Positions 8,522 to 60,019 of a stretch of DNA of 64,000 bases are shown here, in pieces. Both the position numbers and the translations under genes were made by a program. The DNA is from Mobula hypostoma (lineage: Eukaryota), in NCBI RefSeq assembly GCF_963921235.1, contig NC_086108.1:67830001-67894000 (forward strand). Reading direction: 5' to 3'. Position 1 is the stretch's first letter. Every line of letters starts with the position of its first letter. Under the pieces are notes generated by a model. The model ran no database searches and was not told the origin of the DNA. It was given only the letters and a program-made list of their open reading frames with translations.

Positions 8522-11091
8522 GAAACATAGAAACATAGAAAATAGGTGCAGGAGTAGGCTATTCGGCCCTTTGAGCCTGCACCGCCATTTATTATGATCA
8601 TGGCTGATCATCCAACTCAGAACCCAGCCTTCCCTCCATACCCCCTGACCCCTGTAGCCACAAGGGCCATATCTAACTCCCTCTTAAACATAGCCAATGA
8701 ACTGGCCTCAACAGTTTGCTGTGGCAGAGAATTCCACAGATTCACCACTCTCTGTGTGAAGAAGTTTTTCCTAATCTCGGTCCTAAAAGGCTTCCCCTCT
8801 ATCCTCAAACTGTGACCCCTTGTTCTGGACCTCCCCAACATCGGGAACAATCTTCCCGCATCTAGCCTGTCCAACCCCTTTAGGATCTTATACGTTTCAA
8901 TCAGATCCCCCCTCAATCTTCTAAATTCCAACGAGTACAAGCCTAGTTCATCCAGTCTTTCTTCATATGAAAGACCTGCCATCCCAGGAATCAATCTGGT
9001 GAAGCTTCTTTGTACTCCCTCTATGGCAAAGATGTCTTTCCTCAGATTAGGGGACCAAAACTGCACACAATACTCCAGGTGTGGTCTCACCAAGGCCTTG
9101 TACAACTGCAGTAGTACCTCCCTGCTCCTGTACTCGAATCCTCTCGCTATAAATGCCAGCATACCGTTCGTCTTTTTCACCGCCTGCTGTACCTGCATGC
9201 CCACTTTCAATGACTGGTGTATAATGACACCCAGGTCTCGTTGCACCTCCCCTTTTCCTAATCGGCCACCATTCAGATAATAATCTGTTTTCCTATTTTT
9301 GCCACCAAAGTGGATAACTTCACATTTATCCACATTAAATTGCATCTGCCACGAGTTTGCCCACTCACCCAACCTATCCAAGTCACCCTGCATCCTCTTA
9401 GCATCCTCCTCACTGCTAACACTGCCACCCAGCTTCGTGTCATCCGCAAACTTGGAGATGCTGCATTTAATTCCCTCATCCAAGTCATTAATATATATTG
9501 TAAACAACTGGGGTCCCAGCACTGAGCCTTGCGGTACCCCACTAGTCACCGCCTGCCATTCTGAAAAGGTCCCGTTTATTCCCACTCTTTGCTTCCTGTC
9601 TGCTAACCAATTCTCCACCCACACCAATACCTTACCCCCAATACCGTGTGCTTTAAGTTTGCACACTAATCTCCTGTGTGGGACCTTGTCAAAAGCCTTT
9701 TGAAAATCCAAATATACCACATCCACTGGTTCTCCCCTATCCACTCTACTAGTTACATCCTCAAAAAATTCTATGAGATTCGTCAGACATGATTTTCCTT
9801 TCACAAATCCATGCTGACTTTGTCCGATCATTTCACCGCTTTCCAAATGTGCAGTTATCACATCCTTGATAACTGACTCCAGCAGTTTCCCCACCACCGA
9901 CGTTAGGCTAACCGGCCTATAATTCCCCGGTTTCTCTCTCCCTCCTTTTTTAAAAAGTGGGGTTACATTAGCCACCCTCCAATCCTCAGGAACTAGTCCA
10001 GAATCTAACGAGTTTTGAAAAATTATCACTAATGCATCCACTATTTCTTGGGCTACTTCCTTAAGCACTCTAGGATGCAGACCATCTGGCCCTGGGGATT
10101 TATCTGCCTTCAATCCCTTCAATTTACCTAACACCACTTCCCTACTAACATGTATTTCACTCAGTTCCTCCATCTCACTGGACCCTCTGTCCCTTACTAT
10201 TTCTGGAAGATTATTTATGTCCTCCTTAGTGAAGACAGAACCAAAGTAATTATTCAATTGGTCTGCCATGTCCTTGCTCCCCATAATCAATTCACCTGTT
10301 TCTGTCTGCAGGAGACCTACATTTGTCTTTATCAGTCTTTTCCTTTTTACATATCTATAAAAGCTTTTACAGTCCGTTTTTATGTTCTCTGCCAGTTTTC
10401 TCTCATAATCTTTTTTCCCCTTCCTAATTAAGCCCTTTGTCCTCCTCTGCTGAACTCTGAATTTCTCCCAGTCCTCAGGTGAGCCACTTTCTCTGGCTAA
10501 TTTGTATGCTACTTCTTTGGAATTGTTACTATCCCTAATTTCTCTTGTCAGCCACGGGTGCACTACCTTCCTTGATTTATTCTTTTGCCAAACTGGGATG
10601 AACAATTGTTGTAGTTCATCCATGCAACCTTTAAATGCTTGCCATTGCATATCCACCGTCAATCCTTTAAGTGTCATTTGCCAGTCTATCTTAGCTAATT
10701 CACGTCTCATACCTTCAAAGTTACCCCTCTTTAAGTTCAGAACCTTTGTTTCTGAATTAACTATGTCACTCTCCATGTTAATGAAGAATTCCACCATATT
10801 ATGGTCACTCTTACCCAAGGGGCCTCTCACGACAAGATCGCTAATTAACCCTTCCTCATTGCTCAAAACCCAGTCCAGAATAGCCTGCTCTCTAGTTGGT
10901 TCCTCGACATGTTGGTTCAAAAAACCATCCCGCATACATTCCAAGAAATCCTCTTCCTCAGCACCTTTACCAATTTGGTTCACCCAGTCTACATGTAGAT
11001 TGAAGTCACCCATAATAACTGCTGTTCCTTTATTGCACACATTTCTAATTTCCTGTTTAATACCATCTCTGACCTCACTACTACTGTTACT
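8522..11091 (-). mobile_element. Young 5'-truncated CR1 LINE with an uninterrupted 807-aa ORF2 segment
   Basis: ORF 11040-8617 has endonuclease GDFN/SDH motifs and RT motifs VYLDFQKAFD, GVPQGSVLGP and FADD. (TTTCTATG)n tail at ~8518-8545. TSD GTCATA (8516-8521 / 11092-11097). Confidence 0.96.
8617..11040 (-). CDS. CR1 ORF2 (C-terminal half of the APE endonuclease plus reverse transcriptase), N-terminally incomplete
   Basis: 807-aa stop-free ORF with canonical non-LTR RT motifs. Confidence 0.9.
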   Translation of the reverse strand: MCNKGTAVIMGDFNLHVDWVNQIGKGAEEEDFLECMRDGFLNQHVEEPTREQAILDWVLSNEEGLISDLVVRGPLGKSDHNMVEFFINMESDIVNSETKVLNLKRGNFEGMRRELAKIDWQMTLKGLTVDMQWQAFKGCMDELQQLFIPVWQKNKSRKVVHPWLTREIRDSNNSKEVAYKLARESGSPEDWEKFRVQQRRTKGLIRKGKKDYERKLAENIKTDCKSFYRYVKRKRLIKTNVGLLQTETGELIMGSKDMADQLNNYFGSVFTKEDINNLPEIVRDRGSSEMEELSEIHVSREVVLGKLKGLKADKSPGPDGLHPRVLKEVAQEIVDALVIIFQNSLDSGLVPEDWRVANVTPLFKKGGREKPGNYRPVSLTSVVGKLLESVIKDVITAHLESGEMIGQSQHGFVKGKSCLTNLIEFFEDVTSRVDRGEPVDVVYLDFQKAFDKVPHRRLVCKLKAHGIGGKVLVWVENWLADRKQRVGINGTFSEWQAVTSGVPQGSVLGPQLFTIYINDLDEGIKCSISKFADDTKLGGSVSSEEDAKRMQGDLDRLGEWANSWQMQFNVDKCEVIHFGGKNRKTDYYLNGGRLGKGEVQRDLGVIIHQSLKVGMQVQQAVKKTNGMLAFIARGFEYRSREVLLQLYKALVRPHLEYCVQFWSPNLRKDIFAIEGVQRSFTRLIPGMAGLSYEERLDELGLYSLEFRRLRGDLIETYKILKGLDRLDAGRLFPMLGRSRTRGHSLRIEGKPFRTEIRKNFFTQRVVNLWNSLPQQTVEASSLAMFKRELDMALVATGVRGYGGKAGF

Positions 11092-13189
11092 GTCATAAAG
11101 AAGGAAAAGATGGAACTTGAAGGTAAGCTAGCCAATAATATTTAACAGGATATCAAAAGTTTCTTCAGTTACATGAAGTGTAAAAGAGAGGCAAGGGTAG
11201 ATATTGGAGCACTGGATAACAATGCTGGAGAGGTAGTAATGGGACAAGGAATGGCAGGTGAACTGAATAAGCATACTGCACCAATCTTCACAGTAGAAAA
11301 CACTAGGAGTATGCAGGAAGTTCAAGAATGTCAGGGGGCAGAAGTGAATGAAGTTGCCATTACTAGGGAGAAGGTTCTTGGGAAACTGAAAGGTCTGAAG
11401 GTAGATAAGTCACCTGGACCAGATGGTATACACCCCAGGGTTCTGAAAGAGGTGGATGAAGAGATTGTGGAGACATTAGTAATGATCTTTCAAGAATCAA
11501 TTGATTCTGGCATGGTTTTAGAGGAATGGAAAATTGCAAGTGTCTCTCCACTCTTCAGAAAGGGAGAGGAAAGGAAATGATTGGCTAGTTAGTCTGACCT
11601 CTGTGTTTGGGAATTTGTTGGAGTCAATTGTTAAGGATGTGGTTTCAGAGTGCTTGAACGCACATTATAGAACAGATTGTAGTCAGTATTGTTTCCTCAA
11701 GGGAAAATCTTGCCTGACAAATCTTTTGGAATTCTTTGAAGAAATAACAAGCAGGATAGACAAAAGAGAATCAGTAAATGTTGTGGATCTTCAGAAGACC
11801 CTTTGACAAGGTGCCACACATGAGGCTGCTTAACAAGTTAAGAGCCCATGCTATTACAAGAAAATTACTAGCATGGATAGAGTATTGACTGACTGAAAGG
11901 AGGCAAATAATAGGAATGGAGCCTTTTGTGGTTGGCTGCTGGAGACTAGTGGTGTTGCACTGGAGTCTGTGTTTGGACTGCTTCTTTTTTAAGTTATATG
12001 TCAATGAGTTGGATAAGAGAATTGAGGGCTTTTTGGCCAAATTTGCAGACGATACAAAGATAGGTGGAAGGGCAGGATAGTTTTGAAGAAGTAGAGAGGC
12101 TATAGAAGGACTTAGACAGATTAGGAGAATGGGCAAAGAAGTGGCAGAGGGAACATAGTGTCAGCAAGTGTACGGTCATGCACTTTAAAAGGGTAGGCTA
12201 TTTTCTAAATGGAGAGAAAATTCAAAAATATGAGGTGGAAAGGGACCCGGAAGTCCTTGTGCAGAATTCCCTAAAGGTTAATATGCAGGTTGAGTCAGTG
12301 GTGAGGAAGGCAAATGCAATGTTAACCTTCATTTCCAAAGGACTAGAATATAAAAGCAAGGATATAATTTTGAGGCTTCATGAAGCACCAGTGAGGCCTC
12401 ACTTGGAGTATTGTGAGTAGCTTTGGGTCTCTTTTCTAAGAAATGATGTGCTGACATTGGAGAGAGTTCAAAGGAGATTTACAAAAATGATTCCAGGATT
12501 GAGAGGCTTGTCATATGAGGGGAGCGTTCGATAGCTCAGGACCTCGACTTACTGGAATTCAGAAAATGAGGTATGACTCATTGAAACCTATCGAATGTTG
12601 AAAGGTATTGATAGAGTGGATGTGGAGAAGATATTTGCTATGGTGGGGGAGTCTAATATCAGAGGACATAGCCGGAGAATAGAGGGGCATTCTTTTAGAA
12701 TAGAGATAAAGAGGTATTTCTTTAGCCAGAGAGTGTTGAATCAGTGGAATTTATTGTTACAGGAGGCTGTGGAGGCCAAGTCATTGGGTATATTAAAGGC
12801 AGATGTTGGTGGATTCTTGATTAGTCAGAAGAGATGAGATACAGGGAGAAGGCAGGAGTTCGGAGCTGAGAGGGAAAATGGATCAACCATGATGAAATAG
12901 CAAGCAGACTCAATGGGTCAAATGACCTAATTCTGCTCCTACATCTTATGGTCTTATGGAATCCTCACAAGAGACAGGGTGGGACAAAGACTAACTGAAA
13001 TAAGTCTGTAGGCTTGTAATTTGTGTGTGTGGCTAGCCCATCCCTTTGGAGGGAGACAACTGGATTGGTAATGCTTCCTGTCCGCACACAGAACTTGAAA
13101 ATTCTGTTACTACTTCTTCCAGTTTCTACTGTGTTTTCAGCTTCAAATGACCCACCTCAGAGGCTTTCATTAACTTTACAGGAGATAGG

Positions 13190-33690: not shown

Positions 33691-36253
33691 ATGGTGATGA
33701 GTAAATTTTTTTTAAAAACCCGAGACGACTATCTACTTGTTGAAGCGCAGCATACTTTTTTCTTCACAAGGGAAGAAAGATGAATGAGTTAAAAAAAAGC
33801 AGAAAACAGACAAAATTTATGGGTTCATAAACAGTGACAATGATAATACATTTTTTAAAAGCAGAAACAGCTGGCTATATTGGAAAGATAGATGTGTTCG
33901 ATTGCACAGCAGATAACTGGGTGATGTATATGGAATGAATTAAGTAGTATTTTGAAGCAAATGAAATAGCCAGTTTTTCTGAGTGTAATATATGGAAAAT
34001 CATACAGCTTGCTTAACAGTTTGGCTTCTCCAACCAATCCAGCCAGAATGAGCTTTGCTGATATCATGAAAGTAACATAGGAAAATTTAGAACCAAAATG
34101 ATTGTTGCTTGCAGAATGCTGTAAGTTTCATAAGTGGAATCAAAATGAAAGGGAGCCCATTTCAGCATATGTAGCTGAATTGAAGAAATTGTCCAAGCAT
34201 CGTCTGTTCAGTGATGGGCTTAATGATGCACTGAGAGATTATTTACTTTGTGGAATCTTACAAGAAATCTTTCAAAAACAGCTCCCAACTTCAAGTTGTG
34301 AAGCACAATTCACATTTAAAAGAGCAGTTGGAATCACTCTTCTTGCAGTCAGGAATGGAAGTAAGCATGAACAAAATTGTAATGTCTAAACAGAAACCTG
34401 CCTGGCCGAACAAAATGTGTTACCGTTGTAACAGGAACTCACTTTCACCAGATCAATGCAGGTTTAAAGGTGAAACCTGCAGAAAAAGCAGCAAAGTAGG
34501 ACATATGCAAAGAGCATGTCGGGCAGACAAAAATAAATGGACTGCACAGGGAAGAAGAAAAGATAAAAAGTCAATTTGCAGTTTCAAAACGAGCACTAAT
34601 CTGCATGCTGTTGATGAAAAGTATGATAATGATGAGTGTGACACAGGAATGAATAGCCTTGAGACTTATAATGTAAAAACTAACAAGACATAACCAATAT
34701 GGTTTATACTTGAAGTGAATGGCAAATTAATTAAAAAGGAAGTGGGTACTGGCTCAGGTGTTTCAGTCATTCCACAAAATGAGTTTGAAAGGCATTTCAA
34801 AGATACTGAACTGAAGCCTGCAGATATCTAACTAAGAACTTATACTGGAGAAAAATTCATAACAGTGAAATACAACAAGCAACAAGCCACATTGGGCTTG
34901 TATATGGTAAAAACAGGAGGGTCAGTATTGTGGGGCTGTGATTGGCTGAGACAACTATAATTTGATTGGGGATCCACCTACAATTTGCATGACATATCCC
35001 CTGCAATAGAGTCAACTGAAAATGAATTAAGAAAAGGTACCGGACTATGCCACAGGAGTGTTCAAGGATAGCACTGGAAAACTCAGACATATTAAGGGTA
35101 AAGAAGCATTAAATGAAAATGCCACACCCAAGTATGGCCACACCCTTCTGGTCCATATACCATCCAAGATGAAGAATCCAGTGAGCTAGATCACATGGAA
35201 GCTGAAGGAATTATTTGTAATGGTGAGTGGAGCCCATGAACAATGCCAGTGGTCCCAGTAGCCAAGATGGATGGGTCTTTCAAGACCTGTGGTGATTTTA
35301 AGGTCAGCATCAACCCAGTACTGATAGTAGAACAATATCCTCTGCCCAGGATAGAGGACAACTTTGCAAACCTTTCTGGAGATAAATACTGCAAGGTGGA
35401 CTTAACTGAGGCTTACCTACAGATGGAGATGGAAGAAGAGTCCAAAGTGTTTCCCACCATAAACATTTACAAAGGGCTTTATTGACATAATAGGCTTATT
35501 TTTGGAGTAACATCTGCACCTGCCCTCTGTCAGAAAGCTACGGACCAGGAGCTGCAAGGCAGCCCAGGCTCTCAGCATTCCCTGGATGACAAGGAACATC
35601 ACCAGAATCTCAAGACAGTGTTAAAAAGATTAGAACATTATGGGCTCAGATCTCAATGCAGCAAGTGTGAATTCTTTAAACAAAACATCACTTACAGTGG
35701 TCACACCATTGACACACAACTATTACACAAGTGTGCTGAGAAAATTCAAGCAGTGGTGGATGCCCCAAGGCCAAAGGACCGGTCACTGTTGTGGTGGTTT
35801 TTAGGATCGGTCAATTACTGTAACAAGTTCCTACCAAACCTGGCGACTGTGCTCCACCCCTTGAACTCATTACTACAGATTGGGAAGAAATGGCAATGGA
35901 AAAAACAGTGTGATGTGGCTTTCCAAAAGACAAAGGAAATAGTGACACCAGACAGTGTACTCACACATTACGATTCGCATTGTCCGGTGAAGCTTGCCTG
36001 TGACACTGTATAGGTGCAGTTAAGTCACATGTTATGTGTGATGGAAGTGAACGCTTCATAGCCTTGGCATCCTGTTCTCTTACTGCTGCAGAGAAAATTA
36101 TGATTGACAGAGAGGTCTTGAGTCTGGTTTGGAGTGTAAAACTTTTCAACCAGTTGAACCGCATTACTGATCATCAATCACTAGTGGCTGGGATCAAGAA
36201 ACGATCTCAAGCGGAATTGAAAAATTGAGCAGAAAGCAACCGCTAGACAAGTG

Positions 36254-36817
36254 CTGACGAAGGGTCTCAGCCCGAAACGTCGACTGTGCCTCTTCCTAGA
36301 GATGCTGCCTGAGTCCTGACGAAGGGTCTCGGCCCGAAACGTCGACTGTGCCTCTTCCTAGAGATGCTGCCTGAGTCCTGACGAAGGGTCTCGGCCCGAA
36401 ACGTCGACTGTGCCTCTTCCTAGAGATGCTGCCTGAGTCCTGACGAAGGGTCTCGGCCCGAAACGTCGACTGTGCCTCTTCCTAGAGATGCTGCCTGAGT
36501 CCTGACGAAGGGTCTCGGCCTGAAACGTCGACTGTACCTCTTCCTAGAGATGCTGCCTGAGTCCTGACGAAGGGTCTCGGCCTGAAACGTCGACTGTACC
36601 TCTTCCTAGAGATGCTGCCTGAGTCCTGACGAAGGGTCTCGGCCTGAAACGTCGACTGTGCCTCTTCCTAGAGATGCTGCCTGAGTCCTGACGAAGGGTC
36701 TCGGCCTGAAACGTCGACTGTACCTCTTCCTAGAGATGCTGCCTGGCCTGCTGCGTTCACCAGCAACTTTGATGTGTGTTGCTTGAATTTCCAGCATCTG
36801 CAGAATTCCTGTTGTTT
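36254..36817 (+). repeat. Penelope-like-element terminal fragment with 8 tandem 62-bp units, each a minimal type I hammerhead ribozyme motif
   Basis: Unit GAGTCCTGACGAAGGGTCTCGGCCYGAAACGTCGACTGTRCCTCTTCCTAGAGATGCTGCCT. CTGACGA cores at 36254, 36316, 36378, 36440, 36502, 36564, 36626 and 36688. TSD GCTAGACAAGTGCT (36242-36255 / 36818-36831). Confidence 0.88.
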
Positions 36818-38514
36818 GCTAGACAAGTGCTAGCGGGTTTATGACTGAGCACTGAACCTATGTTCAGGTATTCCTTAAATACTCAATTCTTGGTTACCAA
36901 AACATGAGTATCAGTTAACGGGAATGTCCTAAGCCCTTAAAAAGGCTGCACCAGCTATCCATACTCTGGAGAGCTAGAGCATTTAGACCTCAGAAGCTGG
37001 CGTGGTTGGGAGTGTCCCATAACAGTTCCACTAACGCAGCACGAGTGCAGGGACGGGTTCTGATCCTGGGCGGACACAACTACAAGACTGAAATCAGGAG
37101 GACAACTAATTATGGTAATGCTGATCGATTGTCCTGTTTCCCCCTGGAAAAAGAAATACCTGAAAAATTTACACTCTTATTTACAATCTTATTGATGTGT
37201 TCTCCCTAATGCAAATCGGAAGTCTCCCTATTATGGCAGAGCTGATCCAAAAGGAATCCGGAAAAGACTCCACACTGTCTCAGGTCTACATTGCAATTCA
37301 AAATGGCTGGAATGTGCAGCAGAAATTTCAGTTCCCCCATTTTTACCGGTGCTGAGATGAACTTGCTCTTGACAGGGGTTGCCTTATGTGCAGATTGAGA
37401 GTTGTTAAACAATCCAAGTTGAAAGTTAAAGTGCTGGAGGGAGCTACATGCTGGTCATCCAGGTGTGGTCAAAAGGGAAGTGTTGGCTCAAAGCTGAGTT
37501 TGGTCATCTGGAACAGATCAGTAGACTGAGCAGCTTGGCATGCACTGTTTGGGATGCCAACATGTCCAGAAGATGCCAAGAGTAGTACCTCTCCATCCCT
37601 GGGAATGGCTGCAGTGCCCTGGCAGAGGATTCATGTGGATTCTGCTGGACCATTCAAGGGCACAAATTACTTTGTCGTAGTGGATGTAGCTACAAAGTGG
37701 CCAGAAGTGTTCCCAATAGCCTCCACTACAGCCTTGCACACTGCTGATGTGTTGAGAAGCCTCTCCTTAAGGACTGGTGTTCCAGACCACTTAGTAAGTG
37801 ACAGTTTGGTGCAGAACAGTTTCAGTAATTCTTGAGAGTGAATGGAATAGGATACGTTGATCAACACTCTACCACCCAGCTACGAATAGTTTGTCAGGAG
37901 GTTTGTGCAGAGTCTAAAGAACACTCCATGAGCACACTACACTAACAGTGAATCAGAAGCTCGCCTATTTCGTCCTTGCATAGCACAGTGCAGCACACTC
38001 CACAACCAACAACTCACCAGCTATGCTGTTCCTGAGTCACTCCTTGCACTCAAACTTGGATCTCCTCAAACCCAGTCTCAAAAGGAACTTGCAGGACAAG
38101 CAGCTGAGACAAATGCAGGGCTCCGTAAACAGGGAGGCTGATGTTTCACTCCTGGACAGGCAGTCCTGGTGAGGGACTACAGAGGTGAACAAAAGTGGTG
38201 ATTAGGAAAGATTAAGGACCGAACCAGACACTCAGCTACATATGAAGATTGTGTCTGATGTCATCCTGAGACGTCACATCAATCAGTTGAGGAGGGCAGA
38301 GTTGATTTTTGGAGAAGAATCATGTCCAGAGCTGTCAGAACTACTTCCTGCAGTCCCAGAGTCAACTCCTACAATCACTGCAGATAAGGCTCCTGAACCT
38401 GAGATTGCTTCACAACTACAAGTCTCACCTGCCAAGCAGAGTGACCTCACCTTTGTCAGGAAAGAAATGCTCCACAGCCATTAGATCTTTAAGCCTGAGT
38501 GTGACAATATAGAA

Positions 38515-50416: not shown

Positions 50417-50911
50417 CCCTAGAAGCACTAATGAAGCCTAAAGAACAAATGCTTGGGAACATGCACAAGAGTTACTAAAAAGAATGACTATAAAATAATA
50501 CAGGGCAAGTTCCTGTACAGGGAGCCACTGCAGCTTCCTGAATACAAACTTCCCTACAAGTTTTTAGATCTTTAGCTATTCAGAGTTTGCCAGCAGATTT
50601 GTGTCACACCTCCAGCTGATGCTGAAGGAATTCTGAAGAGGCTACTTCAGAATGCTGGGAGGTTACAGGCCTTCTGGGTCAGTCACATTCACCAGCATAT
50701 ACGGCATTTCTTATTAATGTTATTTCCCATTGCCATGGTACCGCTTCCATATGAGTGTGGAAATCCATGTGTTTATAAACAAATTAATGGTGTAGATGTA
50801 CTGTGCACAGAGGACTTTGCATTGCATTGAGTAAAATAGTCAAAAGCCAGGGCCTTAATAACAGCTTTTAAGATCAGAGAACAAATGGCAAGGACAGACT
50901 TGGACCTGGTT

Positions 50912-52265
50912 CACTCCGACATTACATCAACGACTGCATTGGTGCTACTTCCTGCACCCATGTGGAGCTCATCGACTTCGTCAAATTTGCCTCCAATTTC
51001 CACCCTACCCTCAAATTTACCTGGTCCATTTCTGAGATCTCCCTCCCCTTTCTCAATCTCTGGAGACAGTTTAACTACTGATATCTATTATAAACCCACT
51101 GACTCTCACAACTGCCTGGACTATACCTCTTCCCATCCCGTTACTGTAAAGCTGCCATCCCCTTTTCTCAATGTCTCCATCTCCGCTGTATCTGCTCTCA
51201 GGATGAGGCTTTCTATTCCAGAACGAAGGAGATGTCTTCCTTCTTCAAAGAAAGGGGATTCTCTTCCTCCACCATCAACACTGCCCTCAACCACATTGCT
51301 TCCATTTCACGCATTGTCCCGCCACCCTACCAGCGATAGGGTTCCTCTTGTCGTCACCTACCACCTCAAAAGCCTCCACATCCAGCACATCTTTCCCTCC
51401 CCCCCACTTTCTGCTTTCCACAGGGATCACTCCCTATGCGATTCCCTTGTCCATTCATCCCTCCTCACTGATCTCCCTCCTGGTATTTATCCTTGTAAGC
51501 TGAACAAGTGCTACGTCTACCCCTAAACCTCCTCCTTCACTTCAACTCATGGCCTTCCAGGTGAGCCATCACCTGTGAGTTTGTTGGGGTCATCTACTGT
51601 ATCCAGTGCTCCCGGTGTGGCCTCCAGCATATCGGTGAGACCTGACGTAAGTTAGGAGACCACTTTGCTGAGCACCTATGCTCTGTCTGCTGAAAAAGCT
51701 GGATCCCCCAATGGCCACCCATTTTAATTCCACTTCCCATTCTCATTCCGACATGTCAGTCCATGGCCTCCACTACTGTCGCAATGAGGACACACTCATG
51801 ATGGAGGAGCAACACGTTATGTATATTTCATCTGGGTAGCCTCCAACCTGATAGCATGAACCTCAATTTCTCAAACCTCCAGTAATGTTTCCCCAATTTC
51901 ACCATTCCTCATTCATTTTTCCCTCTCTCACATTATCTCCTTACCTGCCCATCACCTCCCTCTGGTGTTTCTCCCTGTTTTCTTTTTTCCATGGCCTTCT
52001 CTCCTCTCCTATCGGATCCCCCCTTCTCCAGCTCTGTAACCCTTTCACCAATCCACTTCCCAGCTCCTTACTTCATCCCTTCCCCTCATGATTTCACCTA
52101 TCACTTTATGTTTCTTCTTCCTCCCCACCCCCACCTTCTATCTCTGCCTCCTCATCTTTTCCCCTCCAGTCCTGATGAAGGGTCTCAGCCCAAATTGTCG
52201 ACTGCACTCTTTTCCATAGATGCTGCCTGGCCTGCTGAGCTCCTCCAGCATTTTGTGTGTGCTGC
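50912..52265 (+). mobile_element. Penelope-like element 3' portion (RT C-terminus, GIY-YIG region, decayed hammerhead)
   Basis: TDIYYKPTDSHNCLDYTSSHP; GVIYCIQCSRCGLQHIGET at ~51587-51645; cagtcCTGATGAagggtctcagcccaaattgtcgactg at 52167-52204. Confidence 0.88.
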
Positions 52266-52616
52266 CTTGTTCATTCGACAATGTTACCCGTTTATCCTCG
52301 TGGAAATCTCTGCACCAGGTGTGGAAAGGCCCTTAATCAACACCCAATGCATGAAGGATTTCAGGACGTTGGAGAGATCCTGTGCACCCACATGGCAGTA
52401 GCTGGATTCCCACTCATTCCCACACAAGGGCAACTAAGTTCCCTGCTTTTCCCTCTAAAGGGAACGTACAGTCAGCATCAAAGTCCTCATACCAACATCA
52501 TTCTTTGGACCTATTGCATTCATACTGTTATCCTACACCAGCCTCTCTTCAGGGAAGAAGTGATCAATAATCCAAACAAGTTCTTTAGAGCCAACCCGAC
52601 TTAGGAAGAGACATTC

Positions 52617-58660: not shown

Positions 58661-58805
58661 GATGAAATGTTGGTGACTTCTTTTTGTATAACGGCTCCAC
58701 TCCTAAGACTCCATTAACTCCCATACTTACCCTGCAGTACTATAAGTTACCTCTTCTATAACTGTTTTGCTCTCCTCTGCCTCTTACTCACCTCTTTGCC
58801 TATTC

Positions 58806-58909
58806 AGCATCTCTAGGAAGAGGTGCCTAGAGATGCTGCCTGGCCTGCTGCGTTCACCAGCAACCTTGATGTGTGTTGCTTGAATTTCCAGCTTCTGCAG
58901 AATTCCTGT
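58806..58909 (+). mobile_element. Short Penelope-like terminal insertion with an inverted 5' piece
   Basis: 13-bp TSD TCTTTGCCTATTC (58793-58805 / 58910-58922). The body matches 36729-36812. Confidence 0.85.
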
Positions 58910-59079
58910 TCTTTGCCTATTCCTCTGGATTGTCCTTGACCCTGGTAGAGTAAAGATCAGGGCCTGCCCCGATCATGCCATTCTTGCTCCTCTCCTTTTG
59001 CTAGTCCTGATCACTAACATTGATATCATCATTTGGTTCACTTGGAAGGTAGAAATTCATGTATATTTGTCGCCTCATC

Positions 59080-59400: not shown

Positions 59401-59681
59401 TTTACAATGTACATAATAATAATACGGTTCTTAAGATTTTGTATAATGTACTTTGTAAATATTTTGATTATTGCTAATGATGGCATCATACTTAGCACGT
59501 TTACACTTTTGACTTTTAAAACAATTTATCTTACTATATTCCGTGTGTTATGGCATACAATGATGGAAGACTTACCAGGAGGAGAAAGATAGCTACCCTT
59601 GGGGCATGCTGTACTCCTGATAACCTTTTTACCTATTCTGTTGTGATTTCTTTGGAAATGGTGATGCAATTCTTGAACCTG

Positions 59682-59793
59682 ACGAAGGGTTCCGACCAAT
59701 CTTTTCCACGGATGCTGCCCGACCTGCTGAGTTCCTCCAGCGTGTTGTGAGTGTTGCTTTGACCCCAGCATCTGCAGATTATTGTGTGTTTAT
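59682..59793 (+). mobile_element. Short Penelope-like terminal insertion starting at a partial hammerhead core
   Basis: 14-bp TSD AATTCTTGAACCTG (59668-59681 / 59794-59807); CTGACGAAGGG..gatgctgcccgacctgctgagttcctccagc..ccagcatctgcaga. Confidence 0.8.
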
Positions 59794-60019
59794 AATTCTT
59801 GAACCTGCAAGGTCTCCAAAGTGTTATATTGTAACAAGGTAGAAATATTTGAATGTGCTTACTATTCACTTATTATTTTGATATAAGCATACATTGTACA
59901 TGTGGTACTCCTACAATGCAACAAGTAGGACCACTAAGCCTACCAATATTACAATTCATTTTATATTTAGTGTTACTAGAATAATTTGTATATTTGATTG
60001 ATAAAATCCCATGATTTCA

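What the first reader, a model, noticed from the sequence alone, without database searches (positions are those of the whole stretch)
36242..36831. Eight tandem minimal hammerhead ribozymes at a 62-nt period
Seen: each unit reads AGUC-CUGACGA-A-GGGU(CUCG)GCCY-GAAAC-GUC-GACU, with helix I AGUC/GACU, helix II GGGU/GCCY, intact CUGANGA and GAAA boxes, a GUC cleavage triplet and a palindromic ACGU in place of helix III. The first copy lacks the 5' strand of helix I. The C->U variant in copies 5-8 keeps a G-U pair. A perfect 14-bp TSD flanks the whole insert. Knowledge: Penelope-like elements carry such minimal type I hammerheads, which are thought to cleave as dimers. Inference: adjacent copies could pair in cis and release 62-nt monomers. 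The array could derive from reverse transcription around a tiny circular RNA or from repeated template jumps, as in a very small retrozyme-like unit.
Basis: partly seen in the sequence, partly recalled or inferred. Interest (0 to 1): 0.75.

Follow-up and report, generated by a model that had tools for sequence, protein, structure and literature searches.

The report
Tandem hammerhead array from Penelope retroelement
Eight head-to-tail copies of a small self-cutting-RNA motif are real, but they are the amplified tail end of a very common Penelope-like jumping gene of rays, a kind of array already described in other animals, and the copies look built in several steps, not by one pass around an RNA circle.

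Summary
Confirmed: 8 x 62 bp (36250-36745), 7 complete minimal type-I hammerhead motifs, a 72-bp unrepeated 3' part and a perfect 14-bp TSD. Unit plus 3' part is the end (pLTR) of a high-copy Penelope-like element (PLE) of rays. An older copy follows decayed PLE ORF remains at 50.9-52.3 kb, and family 3' ends fall in two clusters about 36 bp apart, the PLE 'tail'. One pass round a single circle is unlikely: two variants are shared in blocks (at least 7 parallel changes needed), the unit boundary is at helix I rather than the cut site, and the insert keeps the linear tail. Best reading: the first repeat arose at insertion by a reverse-transcriptase jump, and DNA-level expansion followed. Relatives show other junctions, including a 118-nt array in a Hypanus protein record. 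Whether the 62-bp junction occurs at other loci could not be counted, and cleavage is untested. The array meets a 2026 preprint's operational definition of a non-LTR retrozyme (units 51-972 bp). The scan noted this hammerhead family several times before elsewhere in this genome, but not this array. One lead: several junctions return to the first base of helix I.

The parts
36242..36255 (+). Left target-site duplication (14 bp); its last 6 nt match unit positions 1-6 at 5 of 6 (microhomology at the 5' joint)
36250..36311 (+). Copy 1: positions 1-6 overlap the target (G at pos 4 breaks the helix I pair next to the cut site); private G>A at pos 20 (loop II, CpG); predicted cut after 36281
36312..36497 (+). 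Copies 2-4: complete min-HHR with G10.1-C11.1 (C24) and G39; predicted cuts after 36343, 36405, 36467
36498..36745 (+). Copies 5-8: complete core but G10.1.U11.1 (T24); pos 39 is A, A, G, A; predicted cuts after 36529, 36591, 36653, 36715
36746..36817 (+). Unrepeated 72-bp remainder of the PLE pLTR; about 36783-36817 is the optional 'tail' between the two clusters of family 3' ends
   Evidence: table 7 (loose ends at 36781-84 and 36818-21); (97% match to 58826-58914)
36818..36831 (+). Right target-site duplication (14 bp)
50923..52269 (+). Decayed PLE copy: RT C-terminal part and thumb, a GIY-YIG-like stretch read by eye, a pyrimidine-rich 3' UTR, then an older copy of the same hammerhead pLTR end at 52168-52269 (80% identical to the unit)
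58793..58922 (+). Solo copy of the same young pLTR end, with a 5' inversion and a 13-bp TSD
59668..59807 (+). Solo older copy with a 14-bp TSD, 5' end at unit positions 4-7, internal deletion in the hammerhead
34235..38200 (+). Host context: decayed Gypsy-type gag/pol (weak RVT_1, RT_RNaseH_2 and rve matches, all below Pfam cut-offs), interrupted at about 36187-37005 by a short repeat into which the array inserted

Best explanation
One young, dead-on-arrival insertion of the terminal repeat (pLTR) of a high-copy Penelope-like retrotransposon of rays, whose hammerhead-bearing 62 bp were later amplified. Steps: (1) shown by anatomy: target-primed reverse transcription started at the distal end of the tail (36817) and left a 14-bp TSD. 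(2) Inferred: the RT copied 134 nt to the first base of helix I, jumped at least once to position 62 of the same or a second family RNA, copied to helix I again and joined the target by a 5-of-6 microhomology. (3) Inferred: the resulting dimer or short multimer, probably already mixed (C24/G39 beside T24/A39), grew to 8 copies by minisatellite-type unequal exchange or slippage plus one conversion. If transcribed, neighbours could form double hammerheads, most plausibly in copies 2-4, with low activity. No role for the host is implied.
For: Unit plus tail matches three other window copies, one directly behind PLE ORF remains. That ORF matches a Mobula hypostoma protein with PLE-type RT and PF26215 (tblastn E 1.6e-41), whose last residues read like the unit's own frame. 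48,374 contigs of run X1 were laid on the 501-bp stretch, with summed depth of millions over the element against 6.5 in the flank, and 3' ends cluster at two sites about 36 bp apart, as for the PLE tail (PMC11167929, PMC8557442). All 7 internal junctions carry the element's C at pos 4, not the target's G, so the first repeat is not a later copy of a finished monomer. The parent's upstream consensus ends CAGTT, so the junction is blunt. Block-shared variants need 7-9 parallel changes from one template; the shortest history found is 2 changes, 4 duplications and 1 conversion from a dimer. The family shows many different back-jumps and skips (tables 5, 5c), and an independent array in Hypanus has a 118-nt period and another junction.
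Against: The genome is not held, so the junction could not be counted. The lay showed no piece spanning the junction, but 129,389 pieces were not shown. The depth bound (0.4-0.7% of family depth in 3 DNA-like runs) still leaves room for many loci. In the putative RNA run X15 the same ratio is 3.4%, which is unexplained. All jumps could have happened in one insertion event between two RNA templates (rival 1). The dimer-then-expansion history is a parsimony result under my own event model.
Confidence: 0.58

Rival explanations
1. All eight copies were written in one insertion event: the PLE RT repeatedly reached a fixed stop at the first base of helix I (the RNA 5' end or a structural block) and re-entered at position 62, switching between two family RNAs (T24/A39 and C24/G39). 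No later DNA-level expansion is needed.
For: Only 1 private change in 496 bp and a perfect TSD, so the insert is young. The outer 5' end also falls at positions 1-6. Other junctions return to the same point: a contig joint 36717>36681 and two joints to 36684 in run X5, the Hypanus array and the solo copy at 59678. PLE protein is predicted to be a dimer (PMC11167929). Three template switches explain the marker order (my count).
Against: It needs seven re-entries at exactly the same base with no microhomology, whereas the family's listed jumps land at varied positions. One of the switches must fall between positions 24 and 39 of copy 7.
Confidence: 0.24
2. The 62-nt unit is an independent mini-retrozyme: arrays are transcribed, cut by double hammerheads, ligated into 62-nt circles and re-inserted by PLE RT at new loci; this insert came from such circles or from a transcript of another array.
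For: The array meets the operational retrozyme criteria of 10.64898/2026.07.22.740005. The double-hammerhead pairing is possible. PMC4209133 and PMC7229834 propose circle templates for PLE RT. The junction-side depth ratio is higher in putative RNA run X15 (3.4%) than in DNA-like runs, though it is confounded by two-place fits.
Against: One circle gives identical copies, but two variants are block-shared. The insert keeps a linear 72-bp PLE end. The outer end coincides with the unit boundary, which a circle does not predict (about 1 in 9 by chance, my estimate). Half of the copies have lost the G10.1-C11.1 pair. None of the 3 protein hits to the array's reading frame carries the junction peptides (a weak test). 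In PAc no RNA-seq reads ended at the HHR site (PMC11167929).
Confidence: 0.12
3. Assembly artefact: a monomer or dimer expanded, or two haplotypes merged, by the assembler.
For: No read or contig spanning the array was seen. The best run holds only 0.53 of the sampled words. Two marker blocks could be two haplotypes.
Against: No Ns in the window, a 2.6-kb imperfect (AC)n is resolved nearby, the TSD is perfect, and the mixed copy 7 and the private change in copy 1 are not expected from a collapsed consensus.
Confidence: 0.06

Closest known systems
Minimal type-I hammerheads (min-HHR) in the pLTRs of metazoan Penelope-like elements (Cervera and De la Pena 2014, PMC4209133; parts 1-2 of 4 read, 1 of 2 supplement files searched)
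   Same: CUGANGA and GAAA cores, an extra nucleotide between 9 and 10.1, palindromic 15.2/16.2 with no loop 3, helix I of 4 bp, position in a PLE terminal repeat, dimer-only architecture.
   Different: Here 7 complete motifs lie 62 nt apart inside one TSD, not at the two ends of a 3-kb element. Helix II is 4 bp (7-8 bp in the S. mansoni families described), and copies 5-8 have G.U at 10.1-11.1.
Vertebrate non-LTR retrozymes as pLTR derivatives (Li, Clavereau and Pollet 2026, bioRxiv 10.64898/2026.07.22.740005; parts 1-3 of 5 read, supplements closed)
   Same: Tandem repeat with consecutive type-I HHR units derived from a PLE terminus. 62 bp lies within the reported 51-972 bp. The class is reported in one chondrichthyan, and local amplification from an inserted PLE end is the scenario that paper proposes.
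   Different: 62 bp is near the low end, and 8 units exceeds the maximum of 75% of their families. This array keeps its TSD and the linear PLE tail, so its origin is readable. Their closed Supplementary Table 2 may already list similar arrays.
Metazoan non-LTR retrozymes expressed as circRNAs (coral, mussel, axolotl; PMC7229834; passages and Discussion read)
   Same: Type-I HHR tandem, TSD longer than 4 bp, PLE proposed as mobiliser.
   Different: Those have canonical HHRs with loop-loop contacts, 150-450-bp units, GC below 50% and shown circles. This one has a minimal HHR, a 62-bp unit, GC 0.56-0.60 and no expression evidence.
PLE partial tandems and the optional 30-40-bp tail from internal RT initiation (PAc, PMC11167929, parts 1-2 of 4; PMC8557442 and PMC3846280, passages)
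   Same: Two 3' end sites about 36 bp apart, partial-tandem and inverted 5' structures, microhomology at the 5' joint, TSD.
   Different: The repeated block is only 62 bp and has one junction repeated seven times.

Membership tests
PLE min-HHR | CUGANGA and GAAA cores with NUH triplet | tested here: met
   8 of 8 copies hold the cores; the full descriptor is met by 7 of 8
PLE min-HHR | Unpaired nucleotide between 9 and 10.1; palindromic 15.2-16.2 without stable helix III | tested here: met
   A at unit pos 12 and ACGU in 8 of 8 copies; features from PMC4209133
PLE min-HHR | G10.1-C11.1 pair | tested here: inconclusive
   G-C in copies 1-4, G.U in copies 5-8; no paper on G10.1.U11.1 found
PLE min-HHR | Self-cleavage as a dimer | not testable with these tools
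   The active fold lies 17.7-19.3 kcal/mol above the ensemble, but controls with randomised helices average 16.6-21.7, so the model is uninformative
Penelope-like element terminus | Same terminus lies behind a PLE-type RT ORF | tested here: met
   52168-52269 follows ORF remains that match P0002 at E 1.6e-41; PF26215 precomputed on 3 of 3 hits
Penelope-like element terminus | C-terminal GIY-YIG endonuclease | tested here: inconclusive
   Motif read by eye at 51565-51690 (recalled motif); Pfam found 0 families in 7 of 7 pieces
Penelope-like element terminus | Optional 30-40-bp tail (two RT start sites) | tested here: met
   Loose 3' ends at 36781-84 and 36818-21 in runs X1, X5 and X15 (table cut); window copies with and without the tail
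Penelope-like element terminus | Target-site duplication | tested here: met
   14 bp here; 13 and 14 bp at two solo copies
Non-LTR retrozyme, operational (Li et al. 2026) | TRF tandem with at least 2 consecutive complete type-I HHR units, motif MFE below -5 kcal/mol | tested here: met
   7 consecutive units; MFE -10.0 to -11.9, though not in the active fold; their rnabob descriptor itself was not run
Non-LTR retrozyme, biological (PMC7229834) | Canonical type-I HHR with helix III; unit 150-450 bp; GC below 50% | tested here: not met
   Minimal HHR, 62 bp, GC 0.56-0.60
Non-LTR retrozyme, biological (PMC7229834) | Same unit and junction at independent loci | tested here: inconclusive
   No genome; lay table cut; junction motif absent from metagenome and viral collections, which is uninformative; not in 3 protein hits
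Non-LTR retrozyme, biological (PMC7229834) | Expressed monomer and circular RNA | not testable with these tools
   Only contigs were available, and no run is on record as RNA

The most novel reading that the evidence does not exclude
The 62-nt unit is a self-propagating mini-retrozyme caught at birth from a PLE end: tandem minimal hammerheads cut in cis, the 62-nt monomers circularise, and PLE RT re-inserts the same junction at independent loci. That would put a natural ribozyme-made RNA circle well below the 150 to over 1000 nt reported in PMC7229834, and would give a compact in-cis substrate for asking whether PLE minimal hammerheads ever cut in vivo.
Probability: 0.12. Interest if true: 0.7.

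Novelty: new member of a known kind. Interest (0 to 1): 0.3.

Why it matters
As it stands this is a clean example of how a truncated PLE end becomes a hammerhead minisatellite, the route proposed for vertebrate non-LTR retrozymes. It is unusual in keeping its TSD, its linear tail and readable variant blocks. Its practical value is as a natural construct: the function of PLE minimal hammerheads is still unclear (PMC8557442), and copies 2-4 versus 5-8 give a built-in comparison of G-C with G.U at 10.1-11.1 at the shortest spacing. The recurring boundary at the first base of helix I may mark the 5' end of the PLE RNA or an RT stop, which bears on how PLE partial tandems form. That rests on a few post hoc cases.

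Tried and rejected
Whole-genome search: no genome held. Rfam: no match, so family assignment rests on the published descriptor. Junction motif in metagenome and viral contigs and core motif in metagenome, viral and prokaryote genome contigs: 0 hits, uninformative for a vertebrate repeat. Sequencing runs: no RNA holder listed. The lay placed the junction inside the reference, so junction contigs would be laid without a joint; no listed piece spans it, and 129,389 pieces, 20 + 54 joints and 695 loose ends were not shown. Depths left of the junction mix in contigs that fit two places (174, 235, 23 and 2), so they give only an upper bound. The variant table lists element positions only between 36715 and 36785 and is silent on pos 24. 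Folding energetics: rejected as evidence on activity after the control; z-scores against shuffles were -0.1 to -1.3. Pfam did not confirm GIY-YIG. The Atlas search with 50902-51078 gave unnamed clusters first and PF26215 only at rank 20. Protein search with the array's minus-strand frame: 3 hits of 65 candidates among longer proteins, none among near-length ones. Back-splicing as the origin of the unit: rejected, because the AG is retained at the junction and no GT follows position 62. Later duplication of a finished monomer: rejected (pos 4 is C in all internal copies). Microhomology-driven duplication at CCTG: it would give 55 bp, not 62. Lunse et al. 2017 is not held; I saw only its title in a reference list. 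Paper searches listed nothing on this array or on hammerhead arrays in rays; closed preprint supplements may hold such cases. Earlier-finding look-ups by sequence, by words and by relatives returned nothing on this array.
Full report
Observation. The array is real as described: 36250-36745, period 62, 8.0 copies, no indels, inside a perfect 14-bp TSD. Seven copies meet a strict minimal-hammerhead descriptor, and none appears in 200 shuffled windows. Each unit has helix I (pos 1-4 with 33-36), the CUGACGA core, one extra A, helix II (13-16 with 21-24), GAAA, the palindrome ACGU and a predicted cut after pos 32. Copy 1 takes positions 1-6 from the target, which matches the element at 5 of 6. Four columns vary: pos 4 (copy 1), pos 20 (copy 1), pos 24 (C in 1-4, T in 5-8) and pos 39 (G in 1-4 and 7, A in 5, 6, 8). 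Pos 24 is C11.1 of the pair that PMC4209133 lists as highly conserved. A 72-bp unrepeated part follows copy 8.

What the unit is. Unit plus 3' part is the end of a repeat family. The window holds other copies at 52168, 58826, 59678, 19427 and 29281. The copy at 52168 follows a pyrimidine-rich stretch and decayed ORF remains at 50.9-51.9 kb. A 78-aa piece of that ORF finds 3 proteins among 20 candidates, all with PF26215. One is an annotated Mobula hypostoma protein with RT motifs that aligns back at E 1.6e-41 and 5.6e-36 and ends in residues like the unit's own frame. The GIY-YIG part and a Neptune-type Cys linker are read by eye only; Pfam did not confirm them. The unit's minus-strand frame occurs in annotated Mobula birostris and M. 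hypostoma isoforms at 100% and 91% identity over 34-38% of the query, so the host is a ray near Mobula (inference).

Family-level evidence. Contigs of four public runs laid on 36650-37150 show a very high-copy family: 48,374 contigs in X1, with summed depth of millions over the element against 6.5 in the flank (the tool states this is no copy number). Family 3' ends cluster at 36781-84 and 36818-21, the optional 30-40-bp PLE tail that PMC11167929 ties to two internal RT start sites. Two solo copies in the window carry 13- and 14-bp TSDs, one with a 5' inversion. The insert sits in a short mid-copy repeat inside a decayed Gypsy-type pol. Organism B holds the right flank at about 99% identity; whether its site is filled was not shown.

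How the array arose. Four facts bear on this. First, the insert ends in the linear tail, so copying began on a linear pLTR RNA. Second, all seven internal junctions carry the element's C at pos 4, whereas copy 1 has the target's G, so the first repeat dates from insertion or from the template. Third, the junction is blunt against the parent's upstream consensus and lies at the first base of helix I, 32 nt from the cut site. A parent with one hammerhead cannot excise this unit by self-cleavage. Fourth, one homogeneous template needs 7-9 parallel changes to give the marker pattern, against one private change in 496 bp; the shortest history found is 2 changes, 4 duplications and 1 conversion from a dimer. 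G39 appears rare in the family: it is not among the 27 listed variant rows although both neighbours are, and the depth where such contigs could hide is 0.4-0.5% in X1 and X5. I put 0.58 on a jump at insertion followed by DNA-level expansion, 0.24 on repeated jumps between two RNAs in one event, 0.12 on a propagating circle and 0.06 on an assembly artefact.

Relatives. The family jumps often and to varied places: listed joints include 36717>36681, 36720>36684, 36715>36684, 36754>36722, 36804>36727 and 36809>36734 (15 of 35 and 12 of 66 rows shown). A Hypanus sabinus protein record (P0004) reads through four units of the same pLTR end with a 118-nt period (conflict 0.068 against at least 0.497 for other periods) and a different junction; this is inferred from a protein, not from DNA. 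So hammerhead arrays recur in rays with different units. None of the three protein hits has the 62-bp junction, which is a weak test. The direct count was not possible: no genome, and the lay table was cut. One result leans the other way: the junction-side depth ratio is 3.4% in putative RNA run X15, against 0.4-0.7% in the others. It is confounded and unexplained.

A lead. The boundary at helix I recurs: the array's internal junction, its outer end, the solo copy at 59678 (pos 4-7), the Hypanus array, and three X5 joints (to positions +1, about -3 and -5). In three junctions the two letters before AGTCC are TG, unlike the parent's TT. The parent site fits the recalled initiator consensus YYANWYY and also looks like a 3' splice site; PMC4209133 notes that the D. 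virilis intron ends at helix I. An RNA 5' end, a spliced form or an RT stop at the hairpin could each explain it. The sample is small and chosen after the fact.

Would it cut? The double-hammerhead fold between neighbours is nested and all pairs are allowed, but it lies 17.7-19.3 kcal/mol above an ensemble in which the core pairs with the cut-site strand. Controls with randomised helices give the same penalty, so this says nothing either way. Published data set a low prior: low activity of min-HHR dimers and trimers, no cleavage without protein and no RNA-seq ends at the site for PAc, and 1 of 9 Xenopus dimers active.

Comparison and verdict. It works like a PLE partial tandem turned minisatellite. 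It is a member of the PLE min-HHR kind on all sequence features tested, except the 10.1-11.1 pair in half of the copies. It meets the operational retrozyme definition of the 2026 preprint, which reports units of 51-972 bp, one chondrichthyan, and origin from pLTRs by local amplification. It fails the profile of the expressed circRNA retrozymes. Eight paper searches listed nothing on this array; the preprint's supplements were closed and may cover it. Earlier scan notes on this genome describe the same hammerhead family as known and abundant; they are unchecked and not counted as support. Verdict: new member of a known kind, interest 0.3.

Noticed in passing
window 36250, 36312, 59678; joints in run X5; protein P0004: 5' ends and back-jumps of this PLE family recur at or within a few bases of the first base of hammerhead helix I, and three independent junctions have TG just before it; this may mark the RNA 5' end, a splice acceptor or an RT stop.
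   Followed up: partly
P0004 (Hypanus sabinus LOC132385723), residues 148-311: An annotated 'protein' that is a read-through of a four-unit, 118-nt tandem of the same hammerhead pLTR end plus about 20 other bases; probably a false gene model over a second array.
   Followed up: partly
window about 36187-36241 and 36832-37005: A short repeat of about 230 bp, multi-copy in three DNA-like runs, interrupts the Gypsy RNase H end. The PLE inserted into a 7-bp-arm hairpin within it (arms 36240-36246 and, in the empty site, the bases now at 36830-36836). Family not identified.
   Followed up: no
window 58793-58922: Young solo pLTR copy with a 5' inversion of about 20 bp whose element-side end lies 4-6 bases from the predicted cut site; 13-bp TSD.
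   Followed up: partly
P0002, P0005, P0006: PLE ORF or pLTR pieces are exonised, or mis-annotated as exons, in Mobula gene models named chitinase domain-containing protein 1, LOC134357605 and RELT-like protein 1.
   Followed up: no
window 8617-11127 (-): An 836-aa stop-free frame with endonuclease and RT domains (Pfam Exo_endo_phos_2 and RVT_1), a young LINE copy.
   Followed up: no
window 23613-26256: A 2.6-kb imperfect (AC)n microsatellite.
   Followed up: no
window 30422-29201 (-) and 19427-19303 (-): Two further old PLE fragments with decayed hammerhead pLTR ends.
   Followed up: no
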